DNA of 63,741 bases, counting the filler, from Hausera hauseri (lineage: Eukaryota): NCBI GenBank assembly GCA_046269625.1. It is 13 parts of 13 records of this genome, joined end to end, with 100 filler letters (N's around TTAATTAATTAA, not from the genome) between each part and the next. Parts side by side here need not be neighbours in the genome. Positions count along the whole stretch, not along the records: positions 13,251 to 18,264 come from JBJURY010361374.1; 12 more parts are not named here. The stretch is one strand, 5' to 3'. The translations under genes were made by a program, and so were the position numbers. The number at the start of each line of letters is the position of its first letter. Positions within the stretch are counted from its first letter, which is position 1. The notes under the pieces were generated by a model. That model had not been told where the DNA came from. It was given only the letters and a program-made list of their open reading frames with translations, and did no database searches. This document shows, piece by piece, positions 14,223-18,264 of this stretch.

Positions 14223-14698
14223 TTATGCTTGATCATTGTTTTCTGATTGGCTATTTGAGGCACTAGCCCAGGCCTGAGTCACGGGGTCTTTGTTCAATGT
14301 TAACTTTATTCGTTTCTTTGCAATTTCTCTCTGGATATCGACGTTGTTTTCGATTAGGAATTGGTTTCTGTTGGCATTTGTGTCATACAGCATCTGCTGT
14401 CCAAATTGGTAAATTTTGAGCCGCTTAATGCAGGCTTCTTTCTGTAAAGGGTCCATTTTGATGGGCCAAAAATTAGTCTCAGAATTGTACGTGAAAATAA
14501 GGGGTATTTTTGACGGAATCACGACACTTTTGTAAAGCCCTCGTATAGATCTAAATTTGTAATAGTCATATAATCACTATCAATTTTCTACCTGTTGTCA
14601 TTTGGATGGTTGCATTGGATGATTGCCAAGAATATGTCTGGGGCAACGTCGTGGAATCCGATGTCATCAAACACAATGAGGTCATATTCCCCTGTCCA
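14223..14698 (-). pseudogene. rep: Rep SF3 helicase 3' half, copy 1 (exons 14698-14592 and 14550-14223)
   Basis: Walker B YDLIVFDD. After removing GT-AG intron 14551-14591 it reads RSIRGLYKSVVIPSKIPLIFTYN (B' and motif C), then EACIKRL (Arg-finger region). Confidence 0.82.
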
Positions 14699-15601
14699 AG
14701 GTAATTTGCTTTTCTCAGAAACTTTACCGAATTGTTTGTTGTCAATTTTTCCTCTGTTACTTCTTAGGAAGTCCCATAATGCTGTGGAAAGATGTGTTTG
14801 TTTCCAGTAGTCATGTGATGGTATGTATTCGTAACTGAATATATCTGGTTCGTTAGCTAGTACTTCTGTGACTCCAGTTTGGAAATTTAAATGGTCGTAA
14901 TATTTTTCAATGGTAGCTTCATGGTCCTTATGGTCTTTGATGATAGCTAGTTTTCGAGTTGGTACCATTAGGGGTGTAGATAAGGTTGTGGATGTTCCAG
15001 ATTTTGTCCATCCGTTGATGTAAGCATCGTCTTTGAGTATTCCATCGTTCCAATAAGCTAATAGACCTGTTTTTCCTGTAATGTTTGTGTTAGGTCTGTT
15101 TTCGAATTTGTTGAAGATGTTCTTTTTGTCAACGAAGAATTGTAATCTGCATTCTGGATTGATACCTTTGTAATCGACTGTACCTGTTTGATATATAGGT
15201 AAAGCGTTCATAAATTTTACTGAACAGGAGCTAGGTCTCCAGTATTCGTAGTATTGCATCGTATCGTTGAATTCTTTAATCCATACGTATGGTTGGAAAT
15301 AGGCTAGTTTGAATTCTGCCCATTCCGTAGAATCAGGATAATATGCGACACTGAATGTCATATTTATTGGGAAGGATATTTGAAGACTGTGTTCCAAATT
15401 CATATGGTTTCGTTTAGGATCCTCCAGTTTTCCTCCTTCCACTACGGACGGATTGATAGAGTCAACTCTCCATTTCAATCCTCCATGTACTGGAGATTCT
15501 TCGATATAAGCTTGGTTTTTGAATTGTTGTGGTGTTCTTTGAGGTGTTAGAAGCGTTTCTTTTGTGTGGTGTTGGTCCACTTGTACTTGTTCCTGGTGCA
15601 T
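14699..15601 (-). CDS. Putative jelly-roll capsid protein, parvovirus-like, 3' end replaced in frame by Rep sequence
   Basis: FNDTMQYYEYWRPSSCSVKFMNA...GINPECRLQFFVD resembles the parvoviral VP core pattern (L.NNY.GFRP..L.FK.FNI...NN..ST.QVF.D); recognised by eye only. Confidence 0.55.
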
Positions 15602-15703
15602 TTGGAATATGTTTCATTTTTTTAGTAGTTTTTGTGTTAAGTTACCTGTAATGTCTTTTGATTTTTCAGAGTATGTTATTGGTGTTTTTTGCTGGTAATG
15701 TAT

Positions 15704-16477
15704 TTAAATTAGGTTCTTTGAATATTGTATCTTGAGGATTTTGATTATATCCTTTTTAAATTTTGTATATGGTGTTTTGTATTTCTTTTGTAAATCTGCT
15801 ATTCTTTGTTTCCTAGCTGCTCTGAATAGTATGATTGTTATTTGTAATTTTGTGTGGCTTGTGAGGAATGAGAATGATTGCCCTTCTCTACCTATTAATT
15901 TTGATATTTGAGCCATGAAGTTTCGTAATTTTCCTAATTTAATAGCTCTTTTAGGTCTTGTATTCTTTATACCTATTAATTCTATTATTTCGTTATAGAT
16001 TTTCCTGTCTGGATCTATATCTTCAAATTCTTTGACCCATAAGTCTTCCAACATTTTGTCGTATTTGTGTAATAGCATGTCTATGAAATTCTGATATACT
16101 GATTTCGTAGGATCTATTTGTGATTGTCTTTCCCTTGCTCCGTATAATGTTATGTGATATTTATTCAAAGTTTTATTCATTTTGTGTAATGTATGTAGTA
16201 ATATTACCGTAGGTCTGTACATTTCTGGATACATATAGTACATAATGTCTAATTCATCGTTCCGTTTCCTCCAATTTGTATACTCCTGTACATAATAATT
16301 CAATTGATCCTCTGAGTAAGGTTTTTGAGCGAAGAAATTAGATTTATCTTTCCTATAATCTTGATTAGCCTGAAAATTATCCCATGGTTTAGCCTGATCT
16401 TTCCTTGTTCCTCTGAAAATCATAGGATTGAATTCATCTCTGTACACATCTAGCGATTGTTCGGTTGTTAATTCCAT
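15704..16477 (-). CDS. Viral ORFan, 257 aa, Tyr/Lys-rich; the frame stays open ~80 codons past the stop
   Basis: Open frame with AAAATGG start context and an upstream TATA; no recognised motif. Confidence 0.65.
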   Translation of the reverse strand: MELTTEQSLDVYRDEFNPMIFRGTRKDQAKPWDNFQANQDYRKDKSNFFAQKPYSEDQLNYYVQEYTNWRKRNDELDIMYYMYPEMYRPTVILLHTLHKMNKTLNKYHITLYGARERQSQIDPTKSVYQNFIDMLLHKYDKMLEDLWVKEFEDIDPDRKIYNEIIELIGIKNTRPKRAIKLGKLRNFMAQISKLIGREGQSFSFLTSHTKLQITIILFRAARKQRIADLQKKYKTPYTKFKKDIIKILKIQYSKNLI

Positions 16478-16503
16478 TTATGACACTTTTACGTTATCCC
16501 CCC

Positions 16504-16517
16504 TATTTATATAAATA
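16504..16517 (-). promoter_or_regulatory. Putative TATA box for the viral ORF257/Cap unit
   Basis: TATATAAATAGGGGG on the minus strand ~30 nt before the ATG at 16477, within the palindrome TATTTATATAAATA. Confidence 0.5.
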
Positions 16518-16762
16518 ATATGAGGGGTTTGAGCAGGCTCAAAATAAATATAACATTGTTAAAAGTAAAATTAAAACAAATACTCTATTTTTTTACTTGT
16601 TCCCGCGTATGCAGCCGCCGCTTGCGTGAAGCGCAGGTAAGAGAGCTCCTCGTGTGCTGCCCCTACTGTCAGTCCCCGACCACACACTGGCTCAAAATCC
16701 CCCCTAGAAGACTTTCTTTTATATACCCTTAGGAACCGAAAAATTAGTCTAGGAAAATTTTA

Positions 16763-17400
16763 TTACACGATAATTTCCTCGTCAGATATAAGTATAACAG
16801 TCTGATCCTGACAATTCGTCGGAGTAGAATCAGTATCGTCCAAGTCAATCCCATCATTTTTTGTAAGAGCATGACAAAGCCTTCTCAAGGGGGGTCATAA
16901 TAAACGCATCCCCCTTTTTTGTAAGATGATCGGAGAACGAATGGTACCATGAATCCTGGGATTTATTGTGGTTAAATACCGCAAGAGTGTGAGGAATACT
17001 TGTATCTGGTTTGCAGCAGATAAAACACAGATTGGCTTTTTCCAGACTGTGAATATCTTTATCTAATATTAATCCAGTATGAAAAGTATCAGTGCAAATT
17101 TTTTTTAGCACCTTCCTTAGCGGTATTGGTAAATATCGGATCAGATGTTAGAAAACCATTCATTTGGTATTGCGACGGTAGAGGTTCCACTATCGGATAT
17201 TTAGTGAGAAGTCCATCGTAGTGTTGCATGATATTATAAACGGTTACTTGGATGTCACTGATGAAGATTTGATCATGTACGAGATTTAGGTATTGTTCAT
17301 AAACTTTCGCATATAGGATACCTGCGAGATCTTGTAGCAGATGGGATGTTGAAATTGCTTTAGAGTAAACGCAGTTTAAGTTATAACAGATATTTTCCAT
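16763..17400 (-). pseudogene. Viral ORFan ORF4, copy 2
   Basis: MENICYNLNCVYSKAI...CFICCKPDTSIPHTLAVF...; frameshifts in A-runs near 17100 and 16857, at different sites from copy 1. Confidence 0.7.
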
Positions 17401-17496
17401 AGTGCAGTTAAGCAGAGTAAAATAGTGCAATAAATAAGAACCAAATAGGAAATCTATTTTTAGAAACATTTTTTTTGCTTAATAACTGTTATCCTA

Positions 17497-18264
17497 TTGC
17501 CTGGTTGCTGCAGCTGACCAAGCTTAAGTCACCGGGTCTCTGGAAATTGACAATTTTATGCGTTTCTTTGCTATTTCCTTGTTTATATCAACATTGTTCT
17601 CCACTAGAAACATATTCCTGGTCTCTGTTGTTTCATAAAGCATTGTCTGGCCACATTGATATATCTTGAGCCTCTTAATGCAGGCCTCTTTTTGCACCGG
17701 GTCCATTTTTGCGGGCCAAAAGTTTATTTCACTGTTATAAGTGAATATTAGGGGGATCTTGGATGGGATGACGACACTCTTGTATAATCCTCTTATTGAT
17801 CTATGTGAAATAAAGAAGGTAAAAATATAATGTAATACCTGTTGTCATTAGCGTGATTACACTGTATTATGGCCAGGAATATATCGGGTGAGACATCGTG
17901 GAATCCCACGTCGTCAAATACGATCAAGTCGTATTCCCCTGTCCAGTCAAAGGGGCAATCATGCATTGAGTGTAATATGAGCGGGTTTTTCCCGTGGTTC
18001 AATGCGTAGCACGTTTTTTTGATGTTAGAAGCACCGAATAATATTGCGCTATTTATGCCCTTTTGCGGTGTAAAATCTATAGGAGGCAGGAGGTATGTTT
18101 GATTTGTGTTGGGGATATATTTCTCCCTGAATTTGTTCCGAATATAATTGTTTAGTAACCGGTTCTTGGTGACATATTCCACTCTGTCACCGTCCTTCAT
18201 AATCTCCATGGCCTCCTGAATATTTGGGGCCTCATCAAACATCTTATAGCTGGCCTTTTTAGAT
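17497..18264 (-). pseudogene. rep: CRESS-type Rep, copy 2 (oligomerisation region + SF3 helicase; HUH domain beyond the contig end); intron 17801-17838
   Basis: EAMEIMKDGDRVEYV, SAILFGASNIKKTCYAL (Walker A variant), YDLIVFDD, spliced RSIRGLYKSVVIPSKIPLIFTYN, EACIKRL; premature stop at 17524. Confidence 0.85.

What the first reader, a model, noticed from the sequence alone, without database searches (positions are those of the whole stretch)
14551..17838. Conserved tiny spliceosomal intron inside the viral Rep helicase (41 nt and 38 nt)
Seen on the minus strand. Copy 1: AACAG|GTAGAAAA...AAATTTAG|ATCTATACGA (14591-14551, 41 nt). Copy 2: AACAG|GTATTACA...TCACATAG|ATCAATAAGA (17838-17801, 38 nt). 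Same position and phase; the interiors are unalignable, the GT/AG ends are kept, and neither length is a multiple of 3. Splicing gives the identical peptide NDNRSIRGLYKSVVIPSKIPLIFTYN in both. Known: spliced Reps occur in mastreviruses and genomoviruses, but to my knowledge with longer introns at other positions. Inference: the virus was adapted to a host with very short introns, and intron retention would give a RepA-like helicase-truncated isoform.
Basis: seen in the sequence. Interest (0 to 1): 0.8.

Follow-up and report, generated by a model that had tools for sequence, protein, structure and literature searches.

The report
Microintron inside endogenous viral helicase
Two decayed copies of a small circular-DNA-virus replication gene, left in what is likely a parasitic flatworm's genome, carry a 38-41-base insert with intron ends in the middle of the helicase; related copies share it and one lacks it, so it is most likely a true tiny intron of the size such worms splice, at a site not found in the papers searched.

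Summary
Observation confirmed. Both segments exist at the stated coordinates (41 and 38 nt, GT..AG, phase 2). They lie between Walker B and motif C of a divergent CRESS-type Rep helicase (at most 28% identical to any relative found). The flanks are conserved in two different frames, mostly by synonymous change. Contigs of two public runs add a third version of 40 nt (another length modulo 3, GT/AG kept), further records with the donor at the same base, and one intron-less record that reads straight through the predicted junction. 40 of 40 remote Reps and 27 of 27 viral loci are uninterrupted here. No RNA was available, so splicing is inferred. The host is likely a parasitic flatworm; published microintron peaks there are about 36-37 nt. 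The RepA-like isoform is unsupported: retention gives a 0-14 residue unconserved tail. Tiny Rep introns have a precedent (31 nt in a tapeworm cyclovirus); this site was not found in print. The scan noted a 48-nt Rep intron at another site in another genome (e1-7589380). Both copies are decayed endogenous remnants. New variant of a known kind.

The parts
14551..14591 (-). Intron, copy 1 (41 nt, GT..AG, phase 2, 3n+2, stops in all three frames)
   Evidence: a near-identical contig covers it in run X1 (record 2; may be this DNA's source)
17801..17838 (-). Intron, copy 2 (38 nt, GT..AG, phase 2, 3n+2)
17839..18264 (-). Rep exon 1 of copy 2 (cut by contig end): oligomerisation region, degenerate Walker A, Walker B
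   Evidence: profile positions 120-253, E 7e-34 for one sequence; the profile was built from this exon's own hits
17524..17800 (-). Rep exon 2 of copy 2: motif C (IFTYN), Arg-finger region (CIKRL); ends 17 codons earlier than in copy 1
   Evidence: profile positions 256-325, E 4e-14
14592..14698 (-). Remnant of Rep exon 1, copy 1 (from just before Walker B); everything upstream is replaced by ORF B, in frame
14223..14550 (-). Rep exon 2 of copy 1
   Evidence: profile positions 256-330, E 2e-14
14699..15613 (-). ORF B, about 300 aa, 3' end lost; possibly capsid (position and size only, untested)
   Evidence: no hit; fold uninformative (pLDDT 29)
15704..16477 (-). ORF A, 257 aa, unknown function, basic C-terminus
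   Evidence: no meaningful Pfam hit; run X1 holds it in one piece with ORF B's start (record 5)
13511..14148 (-). ORF D downstream of Rep, copy 1 (CxxC, acidic tail; one frame break)
16763..17400 (-). ORF D downstream of Rep, copy 2 (two frame breaks in A-runs)
16478..16762 (.). Non-coding region between ORF D and ORF A; its first part recurs at 13403-13510; no origin hairpin identified
13251..13402 (.). Very abundant repeat abutting copy 1, likely host DNA at the integration flank
   Evidence: summed depth about 600,000 in the first bin against 2-130 elsewhere, about 100 contigs laid

Best explanation
[quoted passage not shown] Shown: the segment has GT..AG ends at one fixed phase-2 site between Walker B and motif C, its length (38, 40, 41 nt) and interior vary while the flanks stay under coding constraint in two frames, and an intron-less relative reads through the junction. 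Inferred: the host spliceosome removed it from the Rep mRNA, and removal was obligatory for a complete helicase, because motif C and the arginine finger lie in exon 2. Inferred: its size reflects the host's microintron class (about 36-37 nt peak in flukes and tapeworms). Inferred: retention would give a truncated, probably non-functional product rather than a selected RepA. The two window copies are decayed and probably no longer make Rep.
For:: ends, phase, frame-specific synonymous conservation, stops in all three frames of copy 1. (10 records laid, 7 in X1 and 3 in X2): X1 record 1 spans the site with 13 listed substitutions and 2 indel events (3 bases) inside the segment and none at GT or AG, giving 40 nt (3n+1); X2 record 8 shows the same interior from the acceptor side; X1 records 4, 5, 7 and X2 records 9, 10 keep the donor at the same base and then diverge into AT-rich sequence; X1 record 6 has no insert and continues in frame as R-S-I-R-G-L-Y-K-S (read by eye from its 23 loose letters); X1 record 2 is the window copy and record 3 covers only exon 2. 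12 of 14 listed exonic difference places are third codon positions in the two respective frames; 40 of 40 remote Reps have 45 residues from Walker B to motif C, the window 48 with the segment left out; the two exons read with X at the junction score 147 bits against 105 for the unspliced frame; 27 of 27 viral loci are one open frame across the site. Host: the first 8 organism-named hits of a retrotransposon in another contig of the window are trematodes; microintron peaks 37 nt (PMC6530080) and about 36 nt (PMC5036155).
Against: No transcript was seen, so splicing itself is not shown. The host is inferred from a different contig, at 38-51% identity, and the contigs of this window are not physically linked. 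Only three full lengths are known. The intron-less record is a single 146-nt contig of a run whose kind is not on record; it may be another virus lineage, a retrocopy, or come from another organism in the sample. A second frame-restoring AG lies 24 nt downstream in both copies; it is disfavoured by the homologue spacing and by the intron-less record, not excluded as a minor site. Positions +4 to +6 of the donor do not follow the GTAAGT consensus (recalled consensus).
Confidence: 0.88

Rival explanations
1. The segment is a frameshift device (programmed ribosomal frameshift or overlap of two ORFs), not an intron.
For: Both window segments are 3n+2, and in copy 2 the downstream frame is open across the segment.
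Against: Copy 1 has stops in all three frames; the third version is 3n+1, which needs the opposite shift; interiors are unconserved; no relative has room for 13 extra residues here.
Confidence: 0.03
2. The segment is a post-integration insertion or decay scar whose GT/AG ends are chance.
For: Both copies are otherwise decayed, and an insert-free version exists.
Against: The copies are only 70% identical with mostly synonymous exon differences, so they diverged under selection for Rep while carrying the insert; the donor is at the same base in 7 of the 8 records that cover it besides the intron-less one being the eighth (X1 records 1, 2, 4, 5, 7, X2 records 9, 10 versus X1 record 6).
Confidence: 0.04
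3. The intron is real and also regulatory: controlled retention would yield a RepA-like short protein (endonuclease, oligomerisation region, Walker A and B) with its own role, as in mastreviruses.
For: Precedent in mastreviruses, where the excision rate sets the Rep/RepA ratio (PMC6333858 passages); all three lengths are not multiples of 3, so retention always truncates.
Against: No conserved read-through tail (0 residues in copy 1, 14 in copy 2); an intron-less relative shows the family can do without it; frame-breaking short introns are the expected default under nonsense-mediated decay (recalled).
Confidence: 0.15

Closest known systems
Intron-containing Rep of Mastrevirus, Becurtovirus, Capulavirus, Grablovirus and Genomoviridae (10.1101/687855, passages; PMC6333858, passages)
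   Same: A GT-AG intron interrupts a HUH-SF3 Rep and its excision changes the reading frame; the window's relatives share the geminivirus central domain (PF08283, weak hits).
   Different: That intron has one shared location, upstream of the helicase motifs (recalled; for cruciviruses with the maize-streak-like sites the helicase motifs lie in exon 2, PMC7468197). Here Walker A and B lie in exon 1. No RepA-like tail here.
Cyclovirus Rep introns, including tapeworm-associated Calfel (31 nt) and Tenaz (71 nt) cycloviruses (PMC12197738, passages and sections 14, 15)
   Same: Very short intron in the Rep of a CRESS virus linked to a parasitic flatworm; sizes fall near tapeworm intron peaks of about 36 and 73 nt (PMC5036155).
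   Different: Different Rep lineage and ambisense genome. Where coordinates were seen (Mon-58: exon 1 of 161 nt, PMC8471302) the intron is in the endonuclease domain; the positions in Calfel and Tenaz were not given in the text I saw. Other cyclovirus introns are 98-170 nt.
Unclassified CRESS Reps with PF02407 endonuclease and an 'IVFDD...I..RY...IP...IFT.N' helicase (P0001-P0041, L001-L027)
   Same: Colinear helicase with the same Walker B, B' and motif C spacing but for 3 residues.
   Different: At most 28% identical; the window Rep sits on a long branch without a supported sister; none has an interruption at this site.
Dicrocoelium CRESS virus DiCV and its endogenous copies in flukes (PMC10269781, passages)
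   Same: CRESS virus with endogenous sequences in parasitic flatworm genomes.
   Different: [quoted passage not shown]

Membership tests
U2-type spliceosomal intron | GT..AG ends kept while interior and length vary | tested here: met
   38, 40, 41 nt, ends unchanged
U2-type spliceosomal intron | Removal at these ends gives the colinear homologous frame; intron-less homologue continuous at the junction | tested here: met
   (record 6)
U2-type spliceosomal intron | Excision seen in RNA | not testable with these tools
   only contig runs of unrecorded kind were served
CRESS-DNA (Cressdnaviricota) Rep | SF3 helicase with Walker A, Walker B, motif C | tested here: met
   Walker A of copy 2 is degenerate
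CRESS-DNA (Cressdnaviricota) Rep | N-terminal HUH endonuclease with motifs I-III | not testable with these tools
   outside the contig in copy 2, deleted in copy 1; present in many relatives (PF02407 or PF00799)
CRESS-DNA (Cressdnaviricota) virus | Capsid gene | tested here: inconclusive
   ORF B has no hit and no usable fold
CRESS-DNA (Cressdnaviricota) virus | Origin stem-loop with nonanucleotide | tested here: inconclusive
   no NANTATTAC in the non-coding region and no clear hairpin at 16590-16720
Geminivirus/genomovirus intron-containing Rep clade | Intron at the shared site upstream of the helicase motifs | tested here: not met
   intron lies after Walker B; reference position and recall
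Mastrevirus Rep/RepA system | Unspliced frame continues into a conserved RepA-specific tail | tested here: not met
   0 and 14 residues, unrelated
Circoviridae (Cyclovirus) | Ambisense two-gene genome of 1.7-2.1 kb | tested here: not met
   four ORFs on one strand over more than 3 kb; definition from PMC8471302 passage

The most novel reading that the evidence does not exclude
An undescribed four-gene, same-strand CRESS lineage of parasitic flatworms gained a spliceosomal microintron inside the helicase core at an AG-GT site, recently enough that intron-bearing and intron-less members still coexist. Together with the 31- and 71-nt introns of tapeworm cycloviruses, this would mean Rep intron length converges on the host's microintron peaks, making intron size a host fingerprint for orphan CRESS viruses and giving a tractable case of intron gain in a virus.
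Probability: 0.35. Interest if true: 0.65.

Novelty: new variant of a known kind. Interest (0 to 1): 0.43.

Why it matters
Published genealogies count few independent intron origins in Rep (gemini/genomo, circovirids). This is likely a further one, inside the helicase core, in a lineage with no close relative in the collections searched. Presence and absence within one family, in one run, makes gain versus loss testable. If intron size follows the host's microintron class, it helps assign hosts to metagenomic CRESS viruses, most of which have none, and it warns that ORF callers will split such Reps. The copies themselves are decayed, so there is no sign of a present function.

Tried and rejected
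No whole genome is held. No RNA holder listed; this says nothing on expression. No close relative: viral contigs with exon 1, exon 2 and ORF B, metagenome contigs with exon 2, word-indexed protein searches with exon 1 (longer proteins) and ORF B, phage records. A splice-site pattern scan gave 0 loci in viral contigs and 14 in metagenome contigs, of which 0 of 14 encode a relative; its 2 window matches against 0 in 100 shuffles are circular, as the pattern came from these copies. One of the 41 hits (P0006, a repetitive adhesin-like protein) was dropped as spurious before all counts. The Atlas gave no result for exon 1 or ORF B. Single-sequence fold of ORF B failed, so no fold search was run. 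Planarian PEVE was considered from memory and dropped: the passage seen groups it with parvovirus-like elements (PMC3198968). No intron-containing host gene was found in the two regions looked at, so host intron size was not measured. X1 records 3 and 5 share a length but are not colinear, so no intron length was taken from them. The tree (61 rows: window copy 2, 40 proteins, 20 of 27 loci) gave no supported placement.

Full report
Setting. The window is 13 contigs of 4-5.5 kb joined by N-linkers, mostly retrotransposon pieces, with a Polinton-like remnant and a chuvirus-type fusion gene. Both sites lie in contig 4 (13251-18264). On the minus strand it reads: partial Rep (copy 2), ORF D, non-coding region, ORF A, ORF B, then directly the last part of a second Rep (copy 1), ORF D, part of the non-coding region, and a very abundant repeat. 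The duplicated part (13403-14698 vs 16660-17945) is 70% identical over 1304 columns. No whole genome is held.

Observation. Both segments are as described. They split an Arg codon in phase 2 and are 3n+2. Exon flanks differ mostly at third positions, each in its own frame: 5/0/19 over 35 codons upstream, 3/2/18 over 26 codons downstream, 13/12/49 over 91 codons. Interiors are 78-79% AT and align no better than shuffles (14% of 2000 reach the score). Copy 1's segment is closed in all three frames.

Is it a Rep helicase? Exon 1 of copy 2 found 41 proteins at E up to 0.001, none at 1e-10. Of the 25 scanned, 20 besides P0006 carry PF02407, PF00799 or PF08283, some below the curated cut-off, and 4 have no hit; P0006 was dropped as spurious. 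An alignment of exon 1 with 19 hits finds nanovirus, circovirus and other Rep chains in the PDB. A profile of the 40 remaining hits matches exon 1 at positions 120-253 and, independently of how the hits were chosen, exon 2 at 256-325 (E 4e-14). The insert lies between Walker B and motif C. 40 of 40 relatives have 45 residues across this stretch; the window has 48 with the segment left out. 27 of 27 related viral loci are open across the site. Identity to any relative is at most 28% and the tree gives no supported sister.

Other family members. Two coded runs hold the stretch, shares 0.79 and 0.08; X1 may be the window's source. Laid on 14485-14665, 10 records were found. X1 record 2 is the window copy. 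X1 record 1 spans the site with many changes inside the segment, none at GT or AG, and a net loss of one base: 40 nt, 3n+1. X2 record 8 shows the same interior from the acceptor side. X1 records 4, 5, 7 and X2 records 9, 10 keep the donor at the same base and then run into unlike AT-rich sequence; their acceptors were not displayed. X1 record 3 covers exon 2 only. X1 record 6 (146 nt) matches up to the donor position and continues in frame as R-S-I-R-G-L-Y-K-S with its own synonymous codons (read by eye): an intron-less relative that fixes the boundaries and shows the 3 extra residues are a family trait. It reads AG-GT across the junction, the classic insertion context for introns (recalled). 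A different length modulo 3 removes the frameshift rival. A second frame-restoring AG, 24 nt downstream, exists in both copies but would delete conserved residues.

Host. Earlier scan notes on this genome suggested a parasitic flatworm (unchecked leads). My own test: the first 8 organism-named hits of a retrotransposon in contig 11 are trematodes (70 hits, most unnamed). This is a different contig and modest identity, so the host is likely, not shown. Flukes have an intron peak at 37 nt with about 34% of introns under 75 nt (PMC6530080, passages); tapeworms and Gyrodactylus have peaks at about 36 and 73 nt (PMC5036155, passages). The three lengths fit that class.

Mechanism. Shown: ends, phase, variation, intron-less relative. 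Inferred: the virus transcribed Rep in the host nucleus and the host spliceosome removed the microintron; without removal the protein would stop before motif C and the arginine finger. Retention leaves 0 further residues in copy 1 and 14 in copy 2, so there is no sign of a selected RepA tail, unlike mastreviruses, where RepA is the main product of the unspliced transcript (PMC6333858, passages). No RNA was available, so neither splicing nor retention was observed. The window copies are decayed: copy 1 lacks its 5' part, copy 2 has a degenerate Walker A and a shorter exon 2, and ORF D is frame-broken in both.

Known cases. One shared intron site in four geminivirus genera and genomoviruses, a separate one in circovirids (10.1101/687855, passages; its supplements were not seen). 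In cruciviruses the helicase motifs mostly lie in the predicted second exon (PMC7468197, passages). Cyclovirus introns are 98-170 nt (PMC8471302, PMC9241739, PMC12481609; passages and one section), in Mon-58 after 161 coding bases. Two tapeworm cycloviruses have 31- and 71-nt Rep introns (PMC12197738, passages and sections 14-15); 'intron' occurs once in that text, with no position and no link to host intron size; its supplements and GenBank records were not seen and may place them. Endogenous CRESS sequences are known in flukes (PMC10269781, passages). PMC11463337, PMC6186406, PMC3198968 and PMC13696870 (passages) added nothing on position. Searches showed no report of an intron between Walker B and motif C; the library lacks most subscription papers. 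The scan earlier noted a 48-nt Rep intron between endonuclease and helicase in another genome (untested).

Verdict. A real microintron with probability about 0.88, at a site not found in print, in a divergent endogenous CRESS lineage. Spliced Reps, and even very short Rep introns in flatworm-linked viruses, are known, so this is a new variant of a known kind. The presence/absence polymorphism and the possible match of viral intron size to host microintron peaks are the parts worth following. Interest 0.43.

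Noticed in passing
window 14698-14699: ORF B runs in frame into the helicase part of Rep copy 1; two 70%-identical virus variants sit in tandem with a deletion join (or a misassembly). A contig of run X1 crosses the join (record 4, 14670-15160).
   Followed up: partly
window 13251-18264: Four ORFs on one strand (A, B, Rep, D); A, B and D have no detected homologue. 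Run X1 holds several further family members at 80-90% identity.
   Followed up: partly
window 13251-13402: Extremely abundant AT-rich repeat with a short perfect hairpin at 13381-13402 abutting the viral non-coding region.
   Followed up: partly
literature (PMC12197738 vs PMC5036155): The 31- and 71-nt Rep introns of two tapeworm cycloviruses fall near the two tapeworm intron peaks (about 36 and 73 nt); the passages seen do not draw this link.
   Followed up: no
window 47366-48280: Chuvirus-type fusion glycoprotein piece (PF24664) near a reverse transcriptase in contig 10.
   Followed up: no
window 6284-7385: Decayed, apparently intron-free KDM5-like JmjC piece upstream of gag- and protease-like retrotransposon frames.
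   Followed up: no
window 24001-26320: Polinton-like remnant: protein-primed-type DNA polymerase B and endonuclease VII pieces.
   Followed up: no
window 59169-61908: Long open frame (about 910 aa after the linker) with internal repeats and no Pfam hit.
   Followed up: no
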